DNA of 24,000 nt. Source: Acidaminococcaceae bacterium. GTDB lineage: Bacteria > Bacillota > Negativicutes > Acidaminococcales > Acidaminococcaceae. Made by a program: the position numbers and the translations under genes. Below the pieces are notes generated by a model. That model was not told the origin of the DNA. It did no database searches and worked only from the letters and a program-made list of their open reading frames with translations. Below are positions 3,448-22,131 of this stretch, one piece after another. How positions within the stretch are numbered: position 1 is the first letter of the stretch; each line of letters begins with the position of its first letter. Location: assembly GCA_022484685.1 (NCBI GenBank), contig JAKVKY010000009.1, forward strand, positions 33,500-57,499, in the 5' to 3' direction.

Positions 3448-3927
3448 TTAGGCCTTTTCTAAATACTTAAGGTATTTGTTAATCTTGTCCTCATGTTTAA
3501 CCGGAACTACCAGTTTAAGACGGTCACTGGTGGACAAGCCTAACTTACTACTGCACTGCATAATTTGCGCAATATACTTTTCTTCGGCCCGCATGTACGG
3601 GCTCAGCACATCGTAAGTATCCTTGGCGCTTTCACGGCTGGCAATCTCGCTGTGCTCCTGGATGTATTGCACCATGCGGGAGTAGCCGCTCCAGGCATTG
3701 GCATAGATGGCCAAAAAGCCCAGGTCCAAATTATCCAGCAGGTTAATGCTGCCGGCTTCCCGGACCACGCGGTCAAATTCAGCACGCGCAATATCGTCAA
3801 GCCACTCCGGCGCAGTTAGCTGGTCGCGGCCGACCTTGAGCTTTTGTTCGGCCTCGGCACGGTCGCTGCGGGCTTGTTTGCCAACTTTGCCTGTGCTGAT
3901 ATCAATTATTTTGCGGTTTCTTCCCAT
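3448..3927 (-). CDS. terS: Terminase small subunit (P27-family-like)
   Basis: The ORF-track entry starts at a GTG (3936). The ATG at 3927 (MGRNRK...) follows an AGGTGA RBS. About 159 aa, immediately upstream of terL. The LTAPEWLDDIARAEFDRV...LDNLDLGFLAIYANAW pattern resembles P27-type TerS. Confidence 0.7.
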   Translation of the reverse strand: MGRNRKIIDISTGKVGKQARSDRAEAEQKLKVGRDQLTAPEWLDDIARAEFDRVVREAGSINLLDNLDLGFLAIYANAWSGYSRMVQYIQEHSEIASRESAKDTYDVLSPYMRAEEKYIAQIMQCSSKLGLSTSDRLKLVVPVKHEDKINKYLKYLEKA

Positions 3928-4044
3928 TTTTATCACCTGTTTGATTTGAAAAAAGTGCCAAAATATTTTTTTGGGATTTCTGGCAATTTCCCGGAATTTA
4001 GGAGGGAGCGGGGTCTTATTTTTCCTTGGTAAAAACTTTTTTGA

Positions 4045-4452
4045 CTACCCCCGCCAGCCCCTTTTTATCTGCTTCAAGCGTTCTTGAAGCTTTGCTTTTG
4101 CATCTGGGCTGCTGTCATAAATTTTATGGATTTCGGCATGACTTTTTGCGGAAACATAAAGCAAATTTTCCAAACTATACCGCAGATCAGGGCGGTCATG
4201 GATGGTTAAGATGTGATGACTGAGCGTGCCGTGGTCCAAGCGGTGGTGGACTGCATAAGCATATTGGTCTATCCAGCTTGCCCGCCTGCCACAACTTTGT
4301 GTAAGCAGATGCCATTGCTTATCGTGATAAAATGCGGCAGCCTTGCTGTCGCGGCGAGCAGCATCATAAATATGATGCCGGTTGACATGACAAGGGCATT
4401 CGGCATTAAGCTTAAGCCTGCGGCCGCACTGCGGACAAATCTTAGTTAACAT
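4045..4452 (-). CDS. Phage HNH endonuclease (packaging-associated)
   Basis: The ATG at 4452 is preceded by AAGGAGA. The product MLTKICPQCGRR...CPCHVNRHH...LSHHILTIHDRPDLRYSLENLLYVSAKSHAEIH has Cys pairs and an H-N-H arrangement. Its position just upstream of terS is typical of HNH-dependent cos phages. Confidence 0.8.
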   Translation of the reverse strand: MLTKICPQCGRRLKLNAECPCHVNRHHIYDAARRDSKAAAFYHDKQWHLLTQSCGRRASWIDQYAYAVHHRLDHGTLSHHILTIHDRPDLRYSLENLLYVSAKSHAEIHKIYDSSPDAKAKLQERLKQIKRGWRG

Positions 4453-4722
4453 GCAATCTCCTTGCCCATATATAGCAAGAGCGCCGGCTGCGTATGACCG
4501 GCGCTTACCGCGGAAAGGTACGCGGCCTGCTTGCTGCTTGGGGGTTCCGGTGATGGGCCGGTGTATAGTAAGCGGCAAGAGTACCGCTAGCTACCAACGC
4601 CGGGCTGGCTCCCGGCATCGTTAAGGAGGACTCACTGCGGTGAGCCTCTATAATCAGTTTACGCAAAACAGTTCTAATATGATAGTATAAAGAACTATAT
4701 TTAACTATAATTTACTATAATC
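4453..4722 (-). promoter_or_regulatory. Late-operon control / possible cos region: four 10-bp-phased TATAGT-like hexamers followed by a GC-rich multi-hairpin segment
   Basis: In minus-strand sense the sequence reads TATAGTaaat TATAGTtaaa TATAGTtctt TATACT, with hexamers at 4719-4714, 4709-4704, 4699-4694 and 4689-4684. Several GC stems follow (plus-strand coordinates approximate): GAGGACTCAC/GTGAGCCTC ~4626-4648, GCCGGG/CCCGGC ~4599-4616, AGCGG/CCGCT ~4571-4588, GCGCCGG/CCGGCGC ~4481-4505. No convincing coding potential. Confidence 0.4.
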
Positions 4723-13442: not shown

Positions 13443-13457
13443 ATTGCGCTACGCAAT
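13443..13457. promoter_or_regulatory. Distal operator-like palindrome ATTGC-N5-GCAAT
   Basis: attgcgctacgcaat has the same half-sites as the three sites in the switch region. It overlaps the stop codon of the Cro-like gene. Confidence 0.45.
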
Positions 13458-13667
13458 TTTAGAGGCAAAAAAATATTGATAATATTCGTCTGTAGTAAGA
13501 TGTAAAAGGTTAGCTAATGCATTTGCTTCATCCAAGTATATTGGTCTCTTACCATTAATCTTTAAACTTACAGTAGGAACGGCACAATCCCAGACTTTGG
13601 ACGATGCAATATCTTTATATGTTACACCGTTTTCCCTCATCTTGCCTTTAATTTTTGCAGTATTCAT
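13449..13667 (-). CDS. Cro-like HTH regulator (XRE-type)
   Basis: 72 aa, divergent from the repressor gene. VTYKDIASSKVWDCAVPTVSLKINGKRPIYLDEANALANLL looks like an XRE-type HTH. It is the first gene of the leftward operon. Confidence 0.6.
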   Translation of the reverse strand: MNTAKIKGKMRENGVTYKDIASSKVWDCAVPTVSLKINGKRPIYLDEANALANLLHLTTDEYYQYFFASKIA

Positions 13668-13682
13668 GTTTACTCCTTTCTA

Positions 13683-13792
13683 ATTGCACTGTGCAATCCT
13701 AATATCTAAAGAATAGCACGGTAAAATATTAATGTCAATAGCACAGTGCAATTATTTTTAGTTATAAGTAAAATATTGTTGCGTTGTGCAAA
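13683..13792. promoter_or_regulatory. Genetic-switch region: three ATTGC-N5-GCAAT-type operators interleaved with divergent promoters
   Basis: Operators: attgcactgtgcaat (13683-13697), atagcacagtgcaat (13738-13752) and gttgcgttgtgcaaa (13778-13792). Leftward promoter: -35 TTGACA (complement of 13733-13738), 17-nt spacer, -10 TATTCT (complement of 13710-13715). Rightward promoter: -35 TTGCGT (13779-13784), 17-nt spacer, TGa-TATACT (-10 at 13802-13807). Confidence 0.65.
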
Positions 13793-13833
13793 GTATTGTG
13801 ATATACTCTAACCAAGTTATAAGGAGCAAAGAA

Positions 13834-14262
13834 ATGAATATTAATAATAAAGAGATTGGAAAAAGGATATCAAATATAAGAGAAGCTGCTGGTTTAAATA
13901 AAAAAGAACTGGCAGAATTGGTTCATGTAGCAGCTTCCACAATTTCAAGATATGAAGATGGCAGTATTGCAAAGATTAAAATTCCTGTAATAAGTGCGAT
14001 TGCGAATGTTCTTGAAATAAATCCTATGTGGATTATTGGTAAATCAGAGATTAAAGACATCAATAACGGTTGTATCAAGGAAAGTGGAGATTTAATAATT
14101 GATGGAAATAGAAGTAAGCCGTTTCAAAAATTATCGAGTGAGGAACGTAGCATTATAAATAAATACCGCGCCTTGGATGAGCGCGGCAAGTTTAATGTAC
14201 GAGAAACCATTGATCGCGAATATGCTTTTGTGAGGCCAGATAGCAAAGGGCAAGAAGCTTAA
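13834..14262 (+). CDS. cI-like repressor, XRE-family HTH, no S24 peptidase domain
   Basis: The ATG at 13834 follows TAAGGAG. MNINNKEIGKRISNIREAAGLNKKELAELVHVAASTISRYEDGS is a classic XRE HTH. The C-terminal half lacks an obvious LexA-type Ser/Lys domain. Confidence 0.8.
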   Translation: MNINNKEIGKRISNIREAAGLNKKELAELVHVAASTISRYEDGSIAKIKIPVISAIANVLEINPMWIIGKSEIKDINNGCIKESGDLIIDGNRSKPFQKLSSEERSIINKYRALDERGKFNVRETIDREYAFVRPDSKGQEA

Positions 14263-14340: not shown

Positions 14341-14703
14341 ATGATTAGTGAAATCGGAGTGTTTTCCCAAACTGTTATTACAACATTGGGCCTGACTATT
14401 GCACCTGGTACTCCTATTTATCTTGGTCAGAGCAACATAATTCATATGAAAAGTAAACATTTAGAAGATTATTTGAAATATGAAGCCTATATCACAGATA
14501 TACTATCTAACCCGGATTATGTGGCCATAAATAGAAAAGACAGCTCAATTGAATATGTTAAATTATTTTTGACTAACAGTGAATATGTTAAGGTAGCAGT
14601 CAGGGTATCTACTAACGGGATTTATTATGCACGTTCATTATACGTTCTTAATGCAAAGAGAGTGCAGAACTTTATAACAGCTGGTACTCTTAAGCCAGTT
14701 TGA
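14341..14703 (+). CDS. Small conserved phage protein, possibly barnase/EndoU/RelE-fold (PBECR-like) nuclease
   Basis: 120 aa, AAAGGA RBS. The block PIYLGQSNIIHMKSKHLEDYLKYEAYITDILSNPDYV...SIEYVKLF...VKVAVRVSTNGIYYARSLYVL resembles PBECR-type proteins as I remember them. The functional call is weak. Confidence 0.45.
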   Translation: MISEIGVFSQTVITTLGLTIAPGTPIYLGQSNIIHMKSKHLEDYLKYEAYITDILSNPDYVAINRKDSSIEYVKLFLTNSEYVKVAVRVSTNGIYYARSLYVLNAKRVQNFITAGTLKPV

Positions 14704-14728
14704 CAAAACTTTATAAATACTTTATACT
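14700..14728 (+). promoter_or_regulatory. Near-consensus sigma-A-type promoter
   Basis: -35 TTGACA (14700-14705, overlapping the TGA stop of the preceding ORF), exact 17-nt spacer, -10 TATACT (14723-14728). Confidence 0.65.
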
Positions 14729-14734
14729 GTAAGT

Positions 14735-14838
14735 ACAGGGAAGGATTTGAGGGCGGAACAGGCAGCCGCCACCGGAGAGCCGCAAGGCTTGATTAGGGGA
14801 TGTGGGAATGTCACCCCACCTAATCCTTAAACCTAAAG
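14735..14838 (+). ncRNA. GC-rich structured leader or small RNA, class not recognised
   Basis: Helices seen by eye: GGCGG (14752-14756)/CCGCC (14766-14770); GAGCC-GCAA-GGCTT, a GNRA-capped hairpin (14777-14790); and GATTAGG (14791-14797)/CCTAATC (14819-14825). AAGGATT (14741-14747) can alternatively pair with AATCCTT (14822-14828), which overlaps the previous 3' arm. A promoter lies upstream and a terminator downstream. Confidence 0.5.
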
Positions 14839-14881
14839 AAGCCGTACTACAGTAAAATGTGGTGCGGCTTTTGTTTTATTT
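14839..14881 (+). terminator. Rho-independent terminator
   Basis: AAGCCGUACUACA-GUAAAA-UGUGGUGCGGCUU forms a 13-bp stem with two G-U pairs. It is followed by UUGUUUUAUUU. Confidence 0.7.
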
Positions 14882-14925
14882 CAAGTGGAGTGCTATGGTA
14901 GCGTGAATAAGTTAAAGGGGGCTTG

Positions 14926-15684
14926 ATGATGTATATTATCTTGGCTTTATGCGGAATAATAGTTTTCGTCGGCCTGGTTAATTTTGTTGTGAATACCCCT
15001 ACGCCCAGGCGTTGCCCATATACCCTAAAACTTAACAACGGACAGGACTTTGTTGTAAAAAAAGGCTTGGAAGGTCCGCCCATTGTTGATAAAGAGATTC
15101 TGGCCGGCAGAAAGCTTTGGTTCCGGCTGGTCAAAGATTTTACGGTAATTTGTTTTGATACGGCCAACGCATATCCGGATTCGGTTTGCGCCGTTGGCTA
15201 CGCTGTGGTTAAGAATAATAAAATTGTGGATAATATGTTTTATCTATGCCGGCCGCCTTATGATGATTTTTATAACACCAAGTATAACGGCGTGACTTTG
15301 GCAATCGTCCAAAAGCATCCAACTTTTTTAGGCATCTGGGAACAGATCAGGCCGGTAATCGAAGGCCAGGTTGTTGGCGCTTATAATCTGCCATTTCATT
15401 TTAGCTGTCTTAATGCGGCGCTTAAAAATATCGGCGCCGAAGCCCATTATGCATGCTTCGACATTTTGGATGATGCCAGGCGTTTCCTCCCGGGATTAAA
15501 GGATTATTCCCTGGCAGCCGTATCTAAAATCGGCAACTTTGATAGTTCCCCGGATGCTGGAACCAGGGCGCTCAACGCCGCCAGAATCCAAATCATCATT
15601 AATAAGCGGATAAAGGCAATTCCTTATTATGTAGAAGAAAATAATAAAATTGGGGGCGTGTTGGATGAAGAAAAGCTTGCTTAG
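14926..15684 (+). CDS. Membrane-anchored DEDD (DnaQ-like) exonuclease-fold protein with degenerate catalytic motifs
   Basis: Start is ambiguous (TTG 14923, ATG 14926, ATG 14929; GGGGG RBS at 14917-14921). The N-terminal YIILALCGIIVFVGLVNFVV is a TM helix. Residues ~75-235 align by eye to the DnaQ-like consensus, but with substitutions at the catalytic positions: FDTANA for FDxETT, YNLPFH for HNxxFD, and GTRALNAA for HxALxDA. Confidence 0.6.
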   Translation: MMYIILALCGIIVFVGLVNFVVNTPTPRRCPYTLKLNNGQDFVVKKGLEGPPIVDKEILAGRKLWFRLVKDFTVICFDTANAYPDSVCAVGYAVVKNNKIVDNMFYLCRPPYDDFYNTKYNGVTLAIVQKHPTFLGIWEQIRPVIEGQVVGAYNLPFHFSCLNAALKNIGAEAHYACFDILDDARRFLPGLKDYSLAAVSKIGNFDSSPDAGTRALNAARIQIIINKRIKAIPYYVEENNKIGGVLDEEKLA

Positions 15685-16636
15685 CGCAGCTGTCGTAGCT
15701 GCCATGCTTGTGGTGTCGCTGCCTGCGATGGCCGCAGATTCTGCACAGGTGAGGGCGACAAAGGCTGCTAAGATTGTAGAGGCATTAAAAGACGATAATT
15801 TTGCAAGCTTAGCAAATAAACAGTTACGGATACATCTTTATGATAAGTTGGGAATAGACCTGGGTGGGAATATTGTTTTACAAGAAAAAATGAGAAAGTA
15901 TAGTACTGAAGATACGGATATTTTAGGAAAAAATATTATACAAGATAAAAATATACTAGAAAAACAGCCCATACAGTCTGAAACTAATTTAAGTAATTTG
16001 ACAAACACAGGCATTATTATTGATGATATAAAAGATCAAACGATTTATAAACAAGATGTCGTTTTGATTTATAAATGTGATAAGGCGGTCCTAACGTGCC
16101 AAAACTCCAATAACGATATACCTAGTGCTAGAGCTGAATTTGAAAAAGAGCTTTATAATCATTATGGAAAGCGGTTTGTTATAAAACGTATTATTTATGA
16201 CCCTAATCAATTTCTTGAAAAGAAGGATGCATTTTTGGCCATGGTAAAGCCTGACGAAAATATTCTTATTGTCAAGATAACTTTGGAAGGCCAAGGGTTA
16301 GATGTTAAAGAATTTCAAAATGCCTTTGGCGCTAAAATTGGTGCAACCGTTCCCACTACTAAGGTGCATGTTGTTGAAGGAATTTTCAATGCTCATGAAC
16401 ATAAAGAAGGTTACAGTGATTACGGTGTTAAGGATTATTCGGCCTATACTTATGCGTTGGGTAATCGGATTTATACACAAACAGATCCGCGGAAATTAGT
16501 TAAAAATAATATTCGTGGGTGCATAAGGGATATTTGTAGATTTTATGGTGACCAGGTAAACAAATATGCTAATCCGGTGGGATATCAAAATGAGATAAAT
16601 CGGTATAGTGGTAGGTTCTATGACCTCAAGAAGTAA
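15665..16636 (+). CDS. Secreted protein of unknown function (Sec signal peptide)
   Basis: The ATG at 15665 gives MKKSLLSAAVVAAMLVVSLPAMA/ADS, with a basic n-region, hydrophobic core and AxA cleavage motif. It overlaps the upstream gene by 20 nt. The mature part is Lys/Asn/Ile-rich with no family recognised. Confidence 0.65.
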   Translation: MKKSLLSAAVVAAMLVVSLPAMAADSAQVRATKAAKIVEALKDDNFASLANKQLRIHLYDKLGIDLGGNIVLQEKMRKYSTEDTDILGKNIIQDKNILEKQPIQSETNLSNLTNTGIIIDDIKDQTIYKQDVVLIYKCDKAVLTCQNSNNDIPSARAEFEKELYNHYGKRFVIKRIIYDPNQFLEKKDAFLAMVKPDENILIVKITLEGQGLDVKEFQNAFGAKIGATVPTTKVHVVEGIFNAHEHKEGYSDYGVKDYSAYTYALGNRIYTQTDPRKLVKNNIRGCIRDICRFYGDQVNKYANPVGYQNEINRYSGRFYDLKK

Positions 16637-16681: not shown

Positions 16682-18370
16682 ATGGGTGATAATAAGACAA
16701 TAGAACTCCCTTTAGGTAATGATGTAGGTAAAATAATCTCTTTTACAAAAAAGAAACGTCAGCACAAGCCGCTTACGGAGATTGTTTCTATTCATAAATT
16801 ACAAATAACTAAATTTAGACAGTTCGAAAATGTAGAACTGGATTTAGGAGATACAATAACTGCTATAGCTGGTCATAACGCTACAGGGAAATCCACTTTG
16901 TTGGCATTAATAGGTAATAGTTGTGAGTTAAAAGTTAGTGGCGCCGAGAAGCCCTTGATTAAAGAGCAGTTTAGGGCAGAGTTAAGACAAATTATAAAAT
17001 GCTCACTAAAGAATGATATTCGAACAAAACAAGCTATGGTGATTAATTATAAGTTGCCAGGTGGAAAATTGATAGATGTTCCGTTCCGGTTTGGTTGGTG
17101 GGCGAAAGATACAAGACCAAGGCTTGTACCTAAATACAACGGATCTGAATCAAAGTTGAAGTTCCCAGTTTTGTATATTGGACTAAGCCGCTTGCAGCCA
17201 TTAGGAGAATGCGAAGGTAATGTAATGCATTCTAAGGTGTCAGAGTTTTTGGCCAAGCATAAAAATTACAGAGATTGGATTATTGAGAAGTATAAGTACA
17301 TACTCTCTTTACATGAAGTTGAGGGGATTGAAGCACATAAGCATCCTGTTGCCATGCAGAAGGTTTTTGTTGGCGTAAAGAATAAGACTTATGATGAATT
17401 ATGCAATTCTGCTGGTCAAGATAATTTAGGGCAGATACTACTGGCATTTTTATCATTTAAGAATCTTCAAGATAACCATATTAAAAATAAGATTCCTTGG
17501 AATGGAGGAATCTTGCTTGTTGATGAACTTGATGCTACATTACATCCTGCGGCACAGTGTAGGTTATTAGAGGTTTTTGTTAAAGAGATAGAAAAGCATG
17601 ATCTTAAATTGCAAATTGTTTTTACTACGCATAGCCCATCGCTTTTAGAAAGTTTCTATACTTTGCCGGAGTTGAAAAATAATAGAGATAAATATAAGGT
17701 AATATATTTGACACGGGCTAATGGTGATTTGGCAGTAATGAACAATCCGGATTTTGAATTTATCCGTTCTGATATGTTAATTACAGACCCGGCAACTAAA
17801 AGACAAACTAAAATAAATATTTATTCTGAAGACCATGAGGCTAAATGGTTGTTCAATCAGTTGCTTAAAGATACTAACAGGTTATCTAATTATCATATTA
17901 TTAATATGGATATATCATGTTCTACATTAATTAAATTAAATGAAGAAGCTCCTGAAGATTTTTCTAATTCTATAATTCTGCTGGATGGTGATTGTAGAAA
18001 ATCTTTCAATTGTAAAACAATTCCATTCAATATCATTTTTCTTCCTGGGGAAAAACGTCCAGAAAGTGTTATATATGATTATTTAATGAATACTGATGCC
18101 ATGAACCCAATTTTACACAATCCGAATTTTCCGGCAGCGACTAAACGCGGAATTGAAGAGTTCGGACCATTAAGCGCAAAATATGAACATATCCAGGAAG
18201 AGCGTAGCAAATATAAAAAATGGTTCCAAGATAGTGAGTTCTGGTTAACAGGTGATGCAGTTATTGATAGGTGGAAAAAAGATTGCGAAAAACAATATAA
18301 TGATTTCTTAAATCAGCTGAATAAGGTTACGATGAAGCTCATTATCAAAAAAGCTAAAATGTCAAAATAA
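16682..18370 (+). CDS. ABC-type (AAA_15/21-like) ATPase fused to a Toprim-like (OLD / DUF4435-like) domain
   Basis: 562 aa, GGAGGAGA RBS. ATPase motifs: Walker A GHNATGKST, signature-like NSAGQDNLGQ, Walker B GGILLVDELDATLHP, H-loop VFTTHSPSL. The C-terminal third carries IYSEDHEAKW ... IILLDGDCRK ... FLPGEKRPESVIY, arranged like the Toprim E...DxD. Confidence 0.7.
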   Translation: MGDNKTIELPLGNDVGKIISFTKKKRQHKPLTEIVSIHKLQITKFRQFENVELDLGDTITAIAGHNATGKSTLLALIGNSCELKVSGAEKPLIKEQFRAELRQIIKCSLKNDIRTKQAMVINYKLPGGKLIDVPFRFGWWAKDTRPRLVPKYNGSESKLKFPVLYIGLSRLQPLGECEGNVMHSKVSEFLAKHKNYRDWIIEKYKYILSLHEVEGIEAHKHPVAMQKVFVGVKNKTYDELCNSAGQDNLGQILLAFLSFKNLQDNHIKNKIPWNGGILLVDELDATLHPAAQCRLLEVFVKEIEKHDLKLQIVFTTHSPSLLESFYTLPELKNNRDKYKVIYLTRANGDLAVMNNPDFEFIRSDMLITDPATKRQTKINIYSEDHEAKWLFNQLLKDTNRLSNYHIINMDISCSTLIKLNEEAPEDFSNSIILLDGDCRKSFNCKTIPFNIIFLPGEKRPESVIYDYLMNTDAMNPILHNPNFPAATKRGIEEFGPLSAKYEHIQEERSKYKKWFQDSEFWLTGDAVIDRWKKDCEKQYNDFLNQLNKVTMKLIIKKAKMSK

Positions 18371-18426
18371 TAGACTATGGCCAAAAATAGTATTTTGATA
18401 TATACTGTGTGCGAGGAGGTGTTAAT

Positions 18427-19293
18427 ATGCCCCAGACAATGACGCCGCTGAGATACCCTGGTGGGAAGTCTCAGTTGGCCAAATTTATTAAGCACACAAT
18501 TGAATTTAATAATTTGACAGATTCCATATATTGTGAACCATTTTGTGGTGGTTCCGGGGTCGCTATTTCTCTGCTTTTAAGGAATCAGGTTTCATCTATC
18601 ATATTAAATGACCTCGACACAGCCATATACTCGTTCTGGAGAGCTGTTCTGACGGAAACAGATAGATTGACTGAGCGTATTAATACAGTTAGGGTAACGA
18701 TGAATACCTGGCATAGGCAGAAAAATGTTTTCCTTAATTTAAGAGATAACCGTGATTATAGTTTTGAACTAGCTTTTGCAACTTTTTTCCTTAACAGGAC
18801 CAACAGATCCGGTATTATAACCGGTGGCCCTATTGGAGGATATGAGCAGGATTCAGATTATAAGTTGGAGTGCCGTTTTAATAGAGCTGATTTAATCAAG
18901 AAAATAAAGAATATCTCGGTACATAGAGAACAAATCCAGTTATATCATCTTGATGCCATTGACTTAATACACGAAGTTTTATTAAGGCAAGCCCCCAATA
19001 GGTTGTTTATTTATTTTGACCCACCGTATTACGTTCAGGGGAAAAAATTGTACAAAGATTCTTTTGATGATGAGATGCATGGCAGTCTGGCTGATGCAAT
19101 CCATGAGTTGAATGATTATCACTGGATGGCTACCTATGATGATGTAAAAAGGATTAGGGAACTTTACAATGACCTGCAAATCAGGGAATACTCCATTCGC
19201 TATTCGGCAAATGAAAAACGCCAGGCAAAGGAAATATTCTTCTGTAGCCCAGCAACAAGAGTCGAAGATTATGACAAAGTAGTATTTGAATAA
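18427..19293 (+). CDS. D12-class (Dam-type) N6-adenine DNA methyltransferase
   Basis: The ATG at 18427 follows GAGGAGGTG (the track start at 18409 is not ATG). Motifs: LRYPGGKSQL, EPFCGGSGVA (FxGxG SAM site), FFLNRTNRSG and FDPPYY (DPPY catalytic motif). The order matches E. coli Dam. Confidence 0.9.
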   Translation: MPQTMTPLRYPGGKSQLAKFIKHTIEFNNLTDSIYCEPFCGGSGVAISLLLRNQVSSIILNDLDTAIYSFWRAVLTETDRLTERINTVRVTMNTWHRQKNVFLNLRDNRDYSFELAFATFFLNRTNRSGIITGGPIGGYEQDSDYKLECRFNRADLIKKIKNISVHREQIQLYHLDAIDLIHEVLLRQAPNRLFIYFDPPYYVQGKKLYKDSFDDEMHGSLADAIHELNDYHWMATYDDVKRIRELYNDLQIREYSIRYSANEKRQAKEIFFCSPATRVEDYDKVVFE

Positions 19294-19551: not shown

Positions 19552-20343
19552 ATGGAAGTTGCAATTTTGGTTGATGGTGGTTTTTATCGTCGTAGAGCCC
19601 AGAAGTGTATTGGCGAGAAAACAGCACAGGAACGCGCTGAAGAGCTAATTGAGTATTGTATGCGTCATTTAAACCAGGGACACCAAAAGTATTATGATTT
19701 ATACCGAATTTTTTATTATGATTGTCCGCCCATGAGTAAGAGTGTTTATCATCCATTACTTAAGAAAAGTTTGGATTTTAGCAAAACAGATTTGTTTAAA
19801 TGGACTAATGACTTTTTTGAAGAATTAAAAAAGAAACGTAAAGTTGCTTTAAGATTAGGTAATCTAGCTGATAAGCAGGCATATTTTGGAATTAGACCTT
19901 ATGTTCTTAAAGATATCCTGAATGGAAAACGTGGAATGGAATCGCTAACGGAGCAGGATTTTAAGATTAACGTTGATCAGAAGGGTGTTGATATTAAAAT
20001 CGGTATTGATATTGCTTCTTTAGCTTATAAGAAACAAGTTAGGCAGATTGTACTTATTTCTGGTGATAGTGACTTTGTGCCAGCTGCTAAATTGGCAAGG
20101 CGTGAAGGTATTGACTTTATACTTGATCCTCTTTGGAATCCTATTAAGCCTGACTTATATGAGCATATAGATGGACTTTATACCTGTGATGATATATTCA
20201 AACCTAAAAATTTCAGATATAGTTCAACAAGGCAGGGATGCCAATCAAGTAAGACAAAAGTATTTGTATCCCCATATGATAAATCTTCAGTCCCGTCTCA
20301 GGTTCCGGTTCAGACTCCCGTTCAAGATAAAAAGAATAATTAA
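19552..20343 (+). CDS. NYN-domain (LabA/PIN-like) ribonuclease-family protein
   Basis: 263 aa. VAILVDGGF, VDQKGVDIKIGIDIASLA and VLISGDSDFVPAAKLARREGIDF match the conserved acidic blocks of NYN/LabA domains. The C-terminal tail is low-complexity (VPSQVPVQTPVQ). Confidence 0.8.
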   Translation: MEVAILVDGGFYRRRAQKCIGEKTAQERAEELIEYCMRHLNQGHQKYYDLYRIFYYDCPPMSKSVYHPLLKKSLDFSKTDLFKWTNDFFEELKKKRKVALRLGNLADKQAYFGIRPYVLKDILNGKRGMESLTEQDFKINVDQKGVDIKIGIDIASLAYKKQVRQIVLISGDSDFVPAAKLARREGIDFILDPLWNPIKPDLYEHIDGLYTCDDIFKPKNFRYSSTRQGCQSSKTKVFVSPYDKSSVPSQVPVQTPVQDKKNN

Positions 20344-20490: not shown

Positions 20491-22008
20491 ATGTTAAGAG
20501 CAGCTATTTATGCCAGGTATTCCAGCGATAATCAGCGCCATGAAAGTATTGAAACACAATATAGAATCTGTGAGGACTATTGCCGTCAAAAAGGTTACCT
20601 GGTTGTGACCCACTATAAAGATGAGGCTAAGACCGGTACCATGGTGGCCAAGCGTGACGGATTTGCCCAAATGAAACTGGATGCCGGTTTGGACATATGG
20701 GATGTACTGGTGGTGTATACGCTGGATCGCACGGCGCGCCAGGAACTGGATTACTATTTATATAAGCAAGAACTGCTGGCGGCCGGCGTACGATATGAGT
20801 ATGCCACGGAATCTTTTGACCCCGGTACGGTGGACGGGCAGTTTTTTGAAGGAATTCAGGTGGCGCAGGCTGCATGGTACAGTCGTAAGCTTTCTGTAAA
20901 AATTAAGGACGGCAAAGAAACCAATGCCAAGGACCACTTGTTCCCTGGCGGCAAGCCACCTTTTGGCTATGATGTTACTCCAGAGCATGAATATGTGCTT
21001 AACCAGGGTGAGGCGGTGGCCGTGCGGGCAATTTTTGAGCAATATAATAACGGCCATAGCTATGGGGATATCATGAACTGGCTCAATGCTCGGGGATATC
21101 GTACTAAAAATGGTCAGTTGTTTGGCAAAAATAGCTTGTATGACCTGTTGGCAAATCCTAAATATGCAGGTACTTATATTTACCGCAGACATGCTACAAC
21201 CGGGAAAAAGACAAACAGCCACCGGGATAATCCGGATGCGCTTGTTTATACGAATGCTGTACCGGCTATCATCTCCGCTGCCGATTTTGCCAGGGCCCAG
21301 GAGCGTAAAAAAGCAAACAAGAATTGTGGTATCCGGAACAAAAGCTTCTATTTATTAAGCGGTCTGGTGCGCTGTGGTGAGTGCGGTCATGCCATGAGCG
21401 GCAACAGCGTGAGCCGTAGCCATTATCGTTATGAGTTTTATCAATGCACGCAAAAAATGACCAGAGGAGTGGCTGCGTGTCCCAATATCAAGATTAAGAA
21501 ACAGGAGCTGGAAGAGGCTGTCATAGCCGGCATGCTCAAAATAATGACGGTCCCTAACCTGGACATGATAATTACCCAAGCCACGGAAAAGATTGCTGCG
21601 CAGTTGGACGATACGGCCGAAGATGCCGCCACCGTAACTGCTAAGATTAGCGGACTTAACACTAAACTCAATAATATTTATAATGTAATCGAGTCCGGCG
21701 CCGCCGATGAGTTTGATCTGGCCCGGTTGGCGGATATTAAAAAGCAAATTACTGTTGCCCGGGAACATCTGGCACAGATTAATGCCTTTAGGCCGACGCT
21801 CATTGACAGGGATGAAGTGTTGGCCGAATGGTCAGAATTTGTTCCGGTCTTGAAAAACAAAAAAGATCCGCAAAAATTGCGGACCCTGTTAGGAAAATTT
21901 ATATCAACTATTACTGTATTCGCAAACCGCATAACGGTGCAGGTTGCACTACATTGTAGCGAAAAACTGGTAGCGCTAATGGGAATCGAACCCATGATTT
22001 CGCCTTGA
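20491..22008 (+). CDS. int: Large serine recombinase (prophage integrase)
   Basis: 505 aa, AAGGAGA RBS. The N-terminal AIYARYSSDNQ...ETQ resolvase-type catalytic-Ser motif is followed by a recombinase domain and the zinc-ribbon CGECGH...CTQKMTRGVAACPN, then a coiled-coil region. The last 41 nt of the ORF are antisense to tRNA-Glu. Confidence 0.9.
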   Translation: MLRAAIYARYSSDNQRHESIETQYRICEDYCRQKGYLVVTHYKDEAKTGTMVAKRDGFAQMKLDAGLDIWDVLVVYTLDRTARQELDYYLYKQELLAAGVRYEYATESFDPGTVDGQFFEGIQVAQAAWYSRKLSVKIKDGKETNAKDHLFPGGKPPFGYDVTPEHEYVLNQGEAVAVRAIFEQYNNGHSYGDIMNWLNARGYRTKNGQLFGKNSLYDLLANPKYAGTYIYRRHATTGKKTNSHRDNPDALVYTNAVPAIISAADFARAQERKKANKNCGIRNKSFYLLSGLVRCGECGHAMSGNSVSRSHYRYEFYQCTQKMTRGVAACPNIKIKKQELEEAVIAGMLKIMTVPNLDMIITQATEKIAAQLDDTAEDAATVTAKISGLNTKLNNIYNVIESGAADEFDLARLADIKKQITVAREHLAQINAFRPTLIDRDEVLAEWSEFVPVLKNKKDPQKLRTLLGKFISTITVFANRITVQVALHCSEKLVALMGIEPMISP

Positions 22009-22042
22009 GAGGGCGACGTCTTAGCCTCTTGACCATAGCGCC
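21968..22042 (-). tRNA. tRNA-Glu (anticodon CUC)
   Basis: 75-nt cloverleaf: acceptor GGCGCUA/UAGCGCU (first pair is G-U), D-arm GUCA-AGAGGCUA-AGAC, anticodon arm UCGCC-CUCUCAA-GGCGA, T-arm AUGGG-UUCGAUU-CCCAU, discriminator A and encoded CCA. The architecture parallels E. coli tRNA-Glu. Confidence 0.8.
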
Positions 22043-22057
22043 GTTTGTCTAAAAAAA

Positions 22058-22131
22058 TGGCTCCGGGACCAGGACTCGAACCCAGACAAGAAGATCCAGA
22101 ATCTCCTGTGCTACCATTACACTATCCCGGA
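22058..22131 (-). tRNA. tRNA-Gln (anticodon CUG)
   Basis: 74-nt cloverleaf: acceptor UCCGGGA/UCCCGGA with the U1-A72 typical of tRNA-Gln, D-arm GUGU-AAUGGUA-GCAC, anticodon arm GGAGA-UUCUGGA-UCUUC, T-arm CUGGG-UUCGAGU-CCUGG (two wobble pairs), discriminator G and encoded CCA. Confidence 0.75.

What the first reader, a model, noticed from the sequence alone, without database searches (positions are those of the whole stretch)
14926..16636. Overlapping gene pair: membrane-anchored DEDD-exonuclease-like protein with degenerate catalytic residues plus a secreted protein
Seen: ORF 14926-15684 begins with one hydrophobic helix. It then aligns by eye along its length to DnaQ-like 3'-5' exonucleases, but the catalytic positions appear substituted: FDTANA instead of DxE, YNLPFH instead of NxxFD, and GTRALNAA instead of HxAxxD. 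Its last 20 nt overlap the start of a gene encoding a protein with a textbook Sec signal peptide (cleavage AMA/AD) and an otherwise unrecognisable 300-aa body. Established: DEDD folds that lose catalytic residues usually retain nucleic-acid-end binding. Sie and Ltp-type exclusion proteins are membrane or extracytoplasmic and map to this prophage region. Inference: this may be a two-compartment module, with an extracytoplasmic component plus a membrane-tethered cytoplasmic DNA or RNA-end binder. It could block or sense incoming phage DNA, possibly feeding the downstream ATPase-nuclease.
Basis: partly seen in the sequence, partly recalled or inferred. Interest (0 to 1): 0.7.

Follow-up and report, generated by a model that had tools for sequence, protein, structure and literature searches.

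The report
Dead membrane-tethered exonuclease in a prophage
A prophage of a rumen Negativicute carries, between its repressor and integrase, a membrane-anchored copy of a DnaQ-type 3'-5' exonuclease that has lost all five catalytic residues. It overlaps a gene for an unrelated secreted protein, and the two look like separate lysogen-expressed accessory genes, not one machine.

Summary
ORF1 (14926-15684) has one N-terminal transmembrane helix and a confidently modelled DnaQ/PolC-type DEDDh fold. Against 126 relatives it keeps 15 of the 21 most conserved positions. The six it loses are the five catalytic residues (D76C, E78D, D158H, H209P, D214R) plus H121N. ORF2 (15665-16636) overlaps it by 20 nt and has a standard Sec signal peptide.

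ORF1 belongs to an uncharacterised family of DEDDh exonucleases that sit just downstream of the CI-like repressor, near the integrase, in Bacillota temperate phages. Many are membrane-anchored and nearly all have an intact active site. The closest distinct relative stands there without an ORF2-like partner.

ORF2 is a mosaic: a shared signal peptide and N-domain, then a swappable C-domain. Its relatives occur in other prophage lysogeny modules, and in a chromosome, without any exonuclease. The downstream ATPase and methyltransferase recur elsewhere as a separate pair.

Most likely ORF1 is a lysogen-expressed, non-catalytic nucleic-acid-end binder or decoy on the cytoplasmic face of the membrane. 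That function is inferred. The skipping-rope sRNA just upstream belongs to the PBECR3 toxin-like gene, not to ORF1.

The parts
14926..15684 (+). ORF1, 252 aa: a membrane-anchored, catalytically dead DnaQ-like (DEDDh-fold) protein
   Evidence: ORF list and sequence; 2574 homologues; AlphaFold pLDDT 85; Foldseek hits to PolC, DinG, ExoX and epsilon exonuclease domains. The identical protein is in an Acidaminococcaceae MAG (MCH4157674.1) and on at least 26 contigs.
14932..14991 (+). ORF1 N-terminal transmembrane anchor (residues 3-22), predicted N-out/C-in
   Evidence: Kyte-Doolittle mean 2.95; modelled helix 2-22 with pLDDT above 90; basic residues lie only on the C-terminal flank. Analogous helices occur in P0007, P0008, P0009, P0011, P0015, P0016, P0019 and P0030.
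15109..15636 (+). ORF1 DEDD-fold domain (residues 62-237). Substituted catalytic codons: C76 15151-15153, D78 15157-15159, H158 15397-15399, P209 15550-15552, R214 15565-15567
   Evidence: pLDDT 93-98 across the domain. Alignments A2 and A3 and column counts.
15665..15684 (+). 20-nt overlap of the ORF1 3' end with the ORF2 start; the ORF2 Shine-Dalgarno GGGGG (15652-15656) lies inside ORF1
   Evidence: Sequence. The same 20-nt overlap is called in two diverged contigs.
15665..16636 (+). ORF2, 323 aa: an exported mosaic protein. Signal peptide 15665-15733; helical N-domain 15734-15916; low-complexity linker 15917-16048; four-cysteine alpha/beta C-domain 16049-16633
   Evidence: Sequence; alignment A1 shows a shared N-part and a swapped C-part; AlphaFold domain confidences of about 77 and 80 with a disordered linker; GC step at about 15,800-15,850.
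13786..14262 (+). Context: CI-like HTH repressor, divergent from a Cro-like gene at 13449-13667(-). It heads the + strand lysogeny block.
   Evidence: Pfam HTH_3 at 1.4e-10; ORF list.
14341..14703 (+). Context: PBECR3 (Barnase/EndoU/colicin-E5/RelE-like) nuclease gene. Absent from the 96%-identical ORF1 locus.
   Evidence: Pfam PF18812 at 3.6e-22; gene map of the ENA contig.
14700..14882 (+). Context, not part of the pair: skipping-rope sRNA unit. Promoter 14700-14728, RNA 14742-14827, terminator 14837-14872 plus T-run.
   Evidence: Rfam RF02924 at 55.8 bits against a threshold of 36.7; promoter matching 11 of 12 positions and a terminator. The RNA travels with PBECR3-like and other toxin genes.
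16682..19293 (+). Context: AAA_15/AAA_21 ATPase (16682-18370) plus D12 adenine methyltransferase (18409-19293), a separate PD-lambda-5-like pair
   Evidence: Pfam and PADLOC; the same pair is in Javan645 and ValB1MD-2.
20491..22042 (.). Context: large serine integrase (20491-22008, +) whose end overlaps tRNA-Glu (21968-22042, -). This is the likely prophage end.
   Evidence: PHROG_95 at 2e-104; ARAGORN and Rfam.

Best explanation
ORF1 is a pseudo-exonuclease: a catalytically dead offshoot of an uncharacterised family of DnaQ-like DEDDh 3'-5' exonucleases. Temperate phages of Bacillota (including Negativicutes) carry that family immediately downstream of, and co-oriented with, their CI-like repressor, near the integrase. 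The position points to expression in the lysogen.

In ORF1 a single N-terminal helix tethers the domain to the cytoplasmic face of the inner membrane. The fold and the non-catalytic conserved positions are kept, while the metal-binding D-E-D-D residues and the general-base His are all replaced. I infer that it no longer cuts. Instead it binds or caps nucleic-acid 3' ends, or titrates a partner of the active enzymes, at the membrane where foreign DNA enters. That would make it an exclusion or defence-type accessory function.

ORF2 is a second, separable accessory gene: a Sec-exported periplasmic protein of a diderm host. It is built from a conserved signal peptide and N-domain joined to an exchangeable C-domain. 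It is translationally coupled to ORF1 by the 20-nt overlap, but it is not a dedicated partner.

Shown: homology, fold, loss of the catalytic residues, the membrane helix, the gene position, and the separability of the two genes. Inferred: topology, lysogenic expression, end binding and the defence role.
For: Homology and fold.

Targeted loss of the active site.
- 114 of 128 relatives read DEDHD, while ORF1 reads CDHPR.
- Of the 21 columns at least 90% conserved among the 126 other sequences in the alignment, ORF1 keeps 15. It loses exactly the five catalytic residues plus H121.
- The chance that six random losses include all five catalytic residues is 2.9e-4.

The open frame is kept.
- It is identical in at least 26 contigs from many samples.
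- It is intact in two 96%-identical variants that carry the same substitutions.

A second dead lineage. P0028 (A-D-V-gap-N) also sits between repressor and serine recombinase, in two phage backgrounds and on at least 20 contigs. It shares E78D and H121N with ORF1.

Family position, repressor then exonuclease then integrase: L008, L010, L011, L301, Javan310 and JavanS175.

Membrane anchors in many relatives.

Separability of ORF2.

ORF2 C-domain fold. The weak matches are all periplasmic or outer-membrane lipoproteins (HpaA, LptE, PelC, FlgT). This fits an envelope location.
Against: - No binding or phenotype data exist for any member of this family, so the defence role rests on gene position alone.
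- ORF1 lacks the TPR-like tail that most relatives carry. With all catalytic residues gone, simple decay cannot be excluded.
- No nucleotide-level selection test was possible. All available DNA copies are 100% identical, and DNA for the diverged copies could not be fetched.
- No promoter-like site scoring at least 9 of 12 lies between the sRNA terminator (14872) and ORF1. How ORF1 and ORF2 are transcribed in this window is therefore unclear.
- The conserved overlap and the conserved ORF2 N-part within the lineage leave room for some functional coupling.
- The ORF2 model has low confidence (pLDDT 61), so its fold matches are tentative.
Confidence: 0.6

Rival explanations
1. Decaying relic. ORF1 is a former lysogeny-module exonuclease that lost its function and is drifting. 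Its frame survives only because the element is young or because translation of ORF2 depends on it.
For: All five catalytic residues and the TPR-like tail are gone. Pfam no longer recognises the protein. No separate promoter was found. All DNA copies are identical, so the element may be recent.
Against: The losses hit the active site and spare 15 of the 16 other highly conserved positions (P=2.9e-4). The fold is modelled at pLDDT 93-98. The frame is intact in three protein variants about 4-5% apart, and most substitutions within the exonuclease-fold domain are conservative. A second dead lineage, P0028, is widespread in two phage backgrounds.
Confidence: 0.2
2. ORF1 and ORF2 form one two-compartment device: a periplasmic component plus a membrane-tethered cytoplasmic end-binder. 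It senses or blocks incoming DNA and may signal to the downstream ATPase.
For: The 20-nt overlap is conserved in three lineage members. The ORF2 signal peptide and N-domain are conserved alongside ORF1 while the rest varies. L010 also has a secreted protein right after its membrane-anchored exonuclease.
Against: Each gene type occurs without the other at the same prophage position. The L010 secreted protein is unrelated to ORF2. The ORF2 C-domain is swapped within the lineage. ORF1 has essentially no periplasmic part. The ATPase and methyltransferase form an independent pair elsewhere.
Confidence: 0.1
3. RNA-linked role. The dead exonuclease binds the 3' end of the skipping-rope sRNA encoded about 100 nt upstream, or works with the PBECR3 nuclease and RNA cassette.
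For: The three are adjacent in the window. One unrelated prophage (L198) has the order repressor, PBECR3, skipping-rope, DEDDh exonuclease. Weinberg et al. linked skipping-rope-associated genes with those of DUF3800 (PMC5737381), and DUF3800 has an RNase-H-like fold (PMC7736814).
Against: The 96%-identical ORF1 locus has only 44 nt between repressor and ORF1, with no PBECR3 gene. None of 9 other exonuclease loci has the RNA. Among 120 RNA-pattern loci only L198 has a true DEDD neighbour, because the hits in L220 and L278 were to BRCT domains. The RNA instead follows PBECR3, MazF-like, Doc and Abi_2 genes.
Confidence: 0.05
4. Re-tooled active site. Cys76, Asp78 and His158 form a new metal site (for example Zn), so the protein keeps a hydrolytic or regulatory activity.
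For: The replacements are typical metal ligands and sit at the former metal site. E78D and H121N recur in the independent dead lineage P0028.
Against: No precedent is known to me in this fold. The general-base His and the fourth Asp are replaced by Pro and Arg. P0028 has Ala and Val at the corresponding positions.
Confidence: 0.05

Closest known systems
DnaQ-like DEDDh 3'-5' exonucleases (Pfam PF00929 RNase_T): PolC and epsilon proofreading domains, DinG N-terminal exonuclease, ExoX, Cas2-DnaQ
   Same: Clear sequence homology and the same predicted fold. The best structural matches are 2p1j, 8zef, 8h18, 4fzy and 2ido.
   Different: All five catalytic residues are replaced. ORF1 scores below every curated family threshold. 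It carries an N-terminal membrane anchor and sits in a prophage lysogeny module, not a replication or repair context.
Uncharacterised 'xIDFETANxYPDS' lysogeny-module exonucleases (P0007-P0031; Streptococcus phage Javan310 gp2, satellite JavanS175 gp18)
   Same: 40-50% identity, the same linker motif, frequent N-terminal membrane helices, and the same position after the CI-like repressor and before the integrase.
   Different: Nearly all relatives keep D-E-D-H-D, and most carry a C-terminal TPR-like tail. ORF1 has neither. I found no paper describing a function for this family.
PADLOC candidate PDC-S48 and CRISPR-associated DEDDh
   Same: Domain-level similarity of the exonuclease fold (E 1e-9 and 1e-7).
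   Different: Only residues 70-220 match the first third of models 411-512 aa long. This is not full-length membership. No paper in the library mentions PDC-S48.
[quoted passage not shown]
   Same: A membrane-anchored protein with a non-catalytic DNA-binding domain (described as predicted DNA-binding in PMC11706625), encoded in a prophage lysogeny module. It resembles what I propose for ORF1.
   Different: Unrelated fold. It is named in that paper with no function stated in the passages I read.
diDNases (NrnC-like DEDDy dinucleases in genomic islands; PMC11706625)
   Same: DEDD-superfamily nucleases that ride on mobile elements. About two thirds lie next to an HTH gene, often near defence systems.
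   Different: A different DEDD branch. They are soluble, catalytically active, and specific for DNA dinucleotides.
Sie/Ltp-type superinfection-exclusion proteins (P22 SieA, PMC10883804; Ltp and T5 Llp from my own knowledge)
   Same: Prophage-encoded membrane or envelope proteins in the lysogeny region. The weak LptE/HpaA-like fold of ORF2 would fit a receptor- or envelope-directed role.
   Different: No sequence or profile similarity was detected. ORF2 has no lipobox. No exclusion phenotype is known.

Membership tests
DEDDh (DnaQ-like) exonuclease, PF00929 | Homologous RNase-H-like exonuclease fold | tested here: met
   2574 hits; PRK06195 at 5e-21; Foldseek TM-score normalised to the target of 0.7-0.79 against the PolC, Cas2-DnaQ and ExoX exonuclease domains.
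DEDDh (DnaQ-like) exonuclease, PF00929 | Exo I motif D-x-E | tested here: not met
   C76-F-D78 where 98% of relatives have D-F-E.
DEDDh (DnaQ-like) exonuclease, PF00929 | Exo II motif N-x-x-F-D | tested here: not met
   N-L-P-F-H158.
DEDDh (DnaQ-like) exonuclease, PF00929 | Exo III motif H-x4-D | tested here: not met
   P209-D-A-G-T-R214.
DEDDh (DnaQ-like) exonuclease, PF00929 | Score above curated family thresholds | tested here: not met
   No Pfam hit even at E<=1. The best NCBIfam score is 75 bits against a cut-off of 373.
Lysogeny-module membrane-anchored exonuclease family (informal, defined here) | N-terminal anchor, linker and exonuclease domain, encoded after the CI-like repressor and near the integrase | tested here: met
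   Architecture; synteny in the window and in L008, L010, L011 and L301.
Lysogeny-module membrane-anchored exonuclease family (informal, defined here) | Intact active site and C-terminal TPR-like tail | tested here: not met
   CDHPR, and the protein ends at residue 252 with no tail. P0007 also lacks the tail.
Sie/Ltp-type superinfection exclusion | Sequence or profile similarity to known Sie, Ltp or Llp families | tested here: not met
   No such hits in Pfam, PHROGs, PADLOC or NCBIfam for ORF1 or ORF2.
Sie/Ltp-type superinfection exclusion | Lipoprotein signal (lipobox Cys), as in Ltp and Llp | tested here: not met
   The ORF2 signal peptide ends AMA|ADS with no Cys.
Sie/Ltp-type superinfection exclusion | Blocks DNA entry or adsorption of superinfecting phage | not testable with these tools
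   Needs plating, adsorption and DNA-injection assays.
Two-gene module ORF1+ORF2 | Co-inheritance of the two genes across related elements | tested here: not met
   They occur together only in one lineage at least 96% identical. Each occurs alone elsewhere.
skipping-rope RNA (RF02924), neighbouring element | Covariance-model score above the gathering threshold | tested here: met
   55.8 bits against 36.7, full-length match to model positions 1-80.

The most novel reading that the evidence does not exclude
The repressor-linked, often membrane-tethered DEDDh exonucleases of Bacillota prophages may be a previously unrecognised kind of lysogen-expressed barrier. It would act on DNA 3' ends at the cytoplasmic face of the membrane, against superinfecting phage DNA or against incoming transforming ssDNA that could cure the prophage. 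On this reading ORF1 and the independent P0028 lineage are neo-functionalised versions that cap, sense or decoy DNA ends instead of digesting them.
Probability: 0.2. Interest if true: 0.7.

Novelty: new variant of a known kind. Interest (0 to 1): 0.45.

Why it matters
Catalytically dead nucleases that keep their fold are a known route to new binding or sensing functions. A membrane-tethered one in a prophage lysogeny module has not been described, as far as the searched literature shows.

The finding also exposes a recurrent, unstudied gene position: repressor, then DEDDh exonuclease, then integrase. It is seen in Negativicute, streptococcal and other phages, including named Streptococcus Javan phages, which may be easier to test experimentally. 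Active and dead forms are both available, so a single set of plating, DNA-entry and transformation assays could reveal what these proteins do for the lysogen.

For annotation, ORF1 should not be called "DNA polymerase III epsilon subunit", as one source does.

Tried and rejected
- Pfam on ORF1 gave nothing. Homology only appeared with PHROGs, PADLOC, NCBIfam, PDB and the full HMMER scan.
- The word-indexed single-sequence search found only one near-identical protein.
- L001 looked like an independent copy with fragmented genes. It is the same element with 21 single-base indels, that is, assembly errors.
- L290-L297 are 100% identical in DNA, so no dN/dS could be computed. DNA of the two diverged ENA contigs could not be fetched.
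- Locus scans with the mixed ORF2 alignment A1 found nothing in IMG/VR or the metagenome collection. The cleaner alignment A4 found two metagenome loci and none in IMG/VR.
- The genome-collection scan for ORF1 relatives returned mainly distant chromosomal Bacteroidales paralogues and was not used for context.
- Apparent DEDD neighbours of skipping-rope RNAs in L220 and L278 were BRCT-domain hits to the profile, not exonucleases.
- I considered that the skipping-rope RNA might belong with ORF1 and rejected it.
- The supplement of Weinberg et al. 2017 that names the RNA-associated protein is not held.
- I did not establish whether the ATPase matches PD-Lambda-5_A, because only the top 25 of 124 PADLOC hits are listed.
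Full report
**What is there.** The + strand from 13.8 to 22.0 kb is the lysogeny and accessory-gene block of a prophage. In order it holds:
- a CI-like HTH repressor (13786-14262), divergent from a Cro-like gene;
- a PBECR3 nuclease gene (14341-14703);
- a small RNA unit;
- ORF1 (14926-15684) and ORF2 (15665-16636);
- an AAA_15/AAA_21 ATPase (16682-18370) and a D12 adenine methyltransferase (18409-19293);
- a NYN-domain gene (19552-20343);
- a large serine integrase (20491-22008), whose end overlaps tRNA-Glu.

The identical ORF1 protein is recorded from an Acidaminococcaceae MAG (MCH4157674.1) and on at least 26 contigs from many samples. The host is therefore a diderm Negativicute, most likely from the gut or rumen.

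**Checking the observation.** ORF1 and ORF2 each follow a GGGGG ribosome-binding site and overlap by 20 nt. ORF1 residues 3-22 form a strongly hydrophobic segment with a Kyte-Doolittle mean of 2.95. AlphaFold models it as a helix with pLDDT above 90. Basic residues lie only on its C-terminal side, so by the positive-inside rule the rest of the protein should face the cytoplasm (inference).

Pfam finds nothing in ORF1, but the homology to DnaQ-like exonucleases is unambiguous:
- PHROG_192 at 6e-10 and PADLOC DEDDh at 1e-7;
- the PolC exonuclease domain 2p1j at 1e-4;
- NCBIfam PRK06195 at 5e-21, far below its cut-off;
- 2574 hits in an exhaustive HMMER scan.

With a 128-sequence alignment the model reaches pLDDT 85 overall and 93-98 across residues 62-237. 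Its best structural matches are the PolC, DinG, Cas2-DnaQ, ExoX and epsilon exonuclease domains.

**The active site.** In the family alignment 114 of 128 sequences read D-E-D-H-D at the five catalytic columns. ORF1 and its 96% twin read C-D-H-P-R.

Among the 21 columns that are at least 90% conserved in the 126 other sequences in the alignment, ORF1 keeps 15. It loses exactly the five catalytic residues plus H121 of the conserved HG motif. If six losses fell at random, the chance of including all five catalytic positions is 2.9e-4.

**What family it belongs to.** The closest relatives (40-50% identity) share the signature xVIDFETANxYPDS and a conserved linker. Many have an N-terminal membrane helix; others have SWIM or zinc-ribbon N-termini. 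Most carry a C-terminal TPR-like tail.

Wherever informative flanking context could be read, the gene sits just downstream of, and co-oriented with, a CI-like HTH repressor and close to the integrase:
- L008: P0007, 270 aa, membrane-anchored, intact site; repressor, 14-nt gap, exonuclease, tyrosine integrase.
- L010 and L011.
- L301.
- Streptococcus phage Javan310 and satellite JavanS175.

This is a recurrent lysogeny-module gene for which I found no published function. A second fully degenerate lineage, P0028 (A-D-V-gap-N), occupies the same position in two phage backgrounds on at least 20 contigs. It shares E78D and H121N with ORF1. ORF1 also lacks the TPR-like tail, as does the active P0007.

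**Is ORF1 a wreck or a working pseudo-enzyme?**

For function:
- The losses target the active site while the structural positions are retained.
- The fold is predicted with confidence.
- The frame is intact in three protein variants about 4-5% apart. Their substitutions are mostly conservative or lie in the anchor and linker.
- A second dead lineage exists independently.

Against function:
- No nucleotide-level selection test was possible. Every DNA copy I could fetch is identical, and DNA for the diverged contigs could not be fetched.
- No promoter-like site lies between the upstream terminator and ORF1.

I favour a maintained, non-catalytic protein, with a relic as the main rival.

**ORF2 and the pairing.** ORF2 has a standard SPase-I signal peptide (AMA|AD) and no lipobox. 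After it come a roughly 60-residue helical N-domain, a low-complexity linker and a four-cysteine alpha/beta C-domain.

In the two contigs that carry 96%-identical ORF1 copies, the 20-nt overlap is kept and the ORF2 signal peptide plus N-domain are about 70% identical. The C-terminal two thirds, however, are replaced by an unrelated sequence. A drop in GC from about 45% to 28% at roughly 15,800-15,850 marks the junction.

Relatives of ORF2 occur without any exonuclease:
- The full-length relative P0003 follows a cI-like S24 repressor.
- A relative of the C-domain lies between Fic and a tyrosine integrase in another prophage (L308).
- P0004 is a stand-alone exported chromosomal gene among housekeeping genes.

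Conversely, the active relatives of ORF1 have no ORF2-like neighbour. The secreted protein after the L010 exonuclease is unrelated to ORF2.

The ORF2 model is weak (pLDDT 61). Its only fold matches are periplasmic or outer-membrane lipoproteins (HpaA, LptE, PelC, FlgT; E 1e-4 to 1e-2, TM 0.3-0.5). That fits an envelope location but nothing more specific.

The two genes are therefore separable accessory genes that happen to be translationally coupled here, not a conserved two-compartment machine. ORF1 also exposes only about two residues outside the membrane.

**The downstream ATPase.** The ATPase and D12 methyltransferase recur as a pair next to the repressor or integrase in Streptococcus phage Javan645 and Vibrio phage ValB1MD-2, which lack ORF1 and ORF2. 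The methyltransferase matches PD-Lambda-5_B at 1.9e-111. Its discoverers call PD-lambda-5 a compacted prophage RM+Abi system (PMC9519451). Nothing links this pair to ORF1 or ORF2 beyond adjacency.

**The RNA just upstream.** Rfam finds a full-length skipping-rope RNA at 14742-14827 (55.8 bits against a threshold of 36.7). It has a near-consensus promoter at 14700-14728 and a terminator at 14837-14872. Weinberg et al. reported that this motif associates with a nearby protein family (PMC5737381), so I tested whether that family is ORF1. It is not:
- The 96% ORF1 locus has only 44 nt between repressor and ORF1, and no PBECR3 gene.
- None of nine other exonuclease loci has the RNA.
- In 120 IMG/VR loci found with a degenerate pattern (35 of 37 checked are true Rfam hits), the RNA lies 0-130 nt downstream of a toxin-type gene and is almost always co-oriented with it.
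- That gene is PBECR3-like in at least 45 loci. In others it is MazF/PemK-like, Doc or Abi_2.

Only one prophage (L198) repeats the window's order of repressor, PBECR3, RNA and exonuclease.

**How it most likely works.** Shown: a DnaQ-fold domain stripped of its catalytic residues, a membrane helix, a position in the lysogeny block, and separability from ORF2. Inferred: the domain faces the cytoplasm, is made in the lysogen, and binds nucleic-acid 3' ends or a partner of the active enzymes without cutting, at the membrane where foreign DNA enters.

The nearest analogy in the literature is thaL, a transmembrane HIRAN-domain protein in pneumococcal lysogeny modules (PMC12637031). HIRAN domains are predicted DNA binders (PMC11706625). 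NrnC-like diDNases show that DEDD nucleases on mobile elements next to HTH genes are a recurring theme (PMC11706625).

**Verdict.** ORF1 is a new, inactivated and membrane-tethered variant of a known enzyme fold, inside an unstudied prophage gene family. Interest is moderate. The active and dead forms together offer a clean experimental handle.

Noticed in passing
window 14700-14882 (+); loci L170-L289: A skipping-rope sRNA (RF02924) with its own promoter and terminator sits between PBECR3 and ORF1. Across IMG/VR this RNA lies 0-130 nt 3' of toxin or abortive-infection-type genes, almost always co-oriented with them. These are PBECR3-like in at least 45 of 120 loci, and also MazF/PemK-like, Fic/Doc, Abi_2 and two unnamed small families. 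It may be a toxin-linked RNA (antitoxin or decoy) or a marker of cassette boundaries.
   Followed up: partly
L200 5550-6327; L247 5703-6915; L217 2629-2735 and 6429-6507; L216 8078-8308 and 11697-11767; L222 1922-2152 and 5557-5627: Other orphan motifs from the same 2017 survey co-occur with skipping-rope in these loci. They are tandem 6A RNAs before a small unnamed (no Pfam match) gene, tandem drum RNAs before a MazF-like gene, DUF3800-I, and FuFi-1. The tandem RNA-then-toxin layout resembles type III toxin-antitoxin systems.
   Followed up: no
window 16682-19293 (+): An AAA_15/AAA_21 ATPase (PHROG_3940, with weak Toprim-like C-terminal hits) plus a D12 adenine methyltransferase matching PD-Lambda-5_B at 1.9e-111. 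The same pair sits beside the repressor or integrase in Streptococcus phage Javan645 and Vibrio phage ValB1MD-2. It is probably a compact RM/Abi-type defence pair.
   Followed up: partly
window 15800-15850: GC content drops from about 45% to about 28% inside ORF2. The drop falls where similarity to the ORF2 versions of the sister contigs ends. This looks like a recombination junction inside a gene that swaps the C-terminal domain of an exported protein.
   Followed up: partly
window 20491-22131: The 3' end of the serine integrase gene overlaps tRNA-Glu(ctc) on the opposite strand, and tRNA-Gln(ctg) follows. This is the likely attachment site and prophage boundary.
   Followed up: no
L298 5001-5951; L299 5001-5951: P0028, a second and independently degenerate exonuclease homologue (A-D-V-gap-N, with no membrane helix), sits after the repressor in two different phage backgrounds. 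In one it lies next to DUF4145 and Fic genes. It shares the E-to-D and H-to-N replacements with ORF1.
   Followed up: partly
L198 5292-8153: An unrelated prophage repeats the order cI(S24) repressor, PBECR3, skipping-rope RNA (here on the opposite strand), DEDDh exonuclease. The exonuclease is intact and fused to a SWIM zinc finger. A second exonuclease-BRCT gene lies at 3486-4475.
   Followed up: partly
window 19552-20343 (+): A NYN-domain protein (PHROG_5783 at 2e-85, with weak LabA-like NYN hits) lies between the methyltransferase and the integrase. It is another nuclease-fold accessory gene of unknown role.
   Followed up: no
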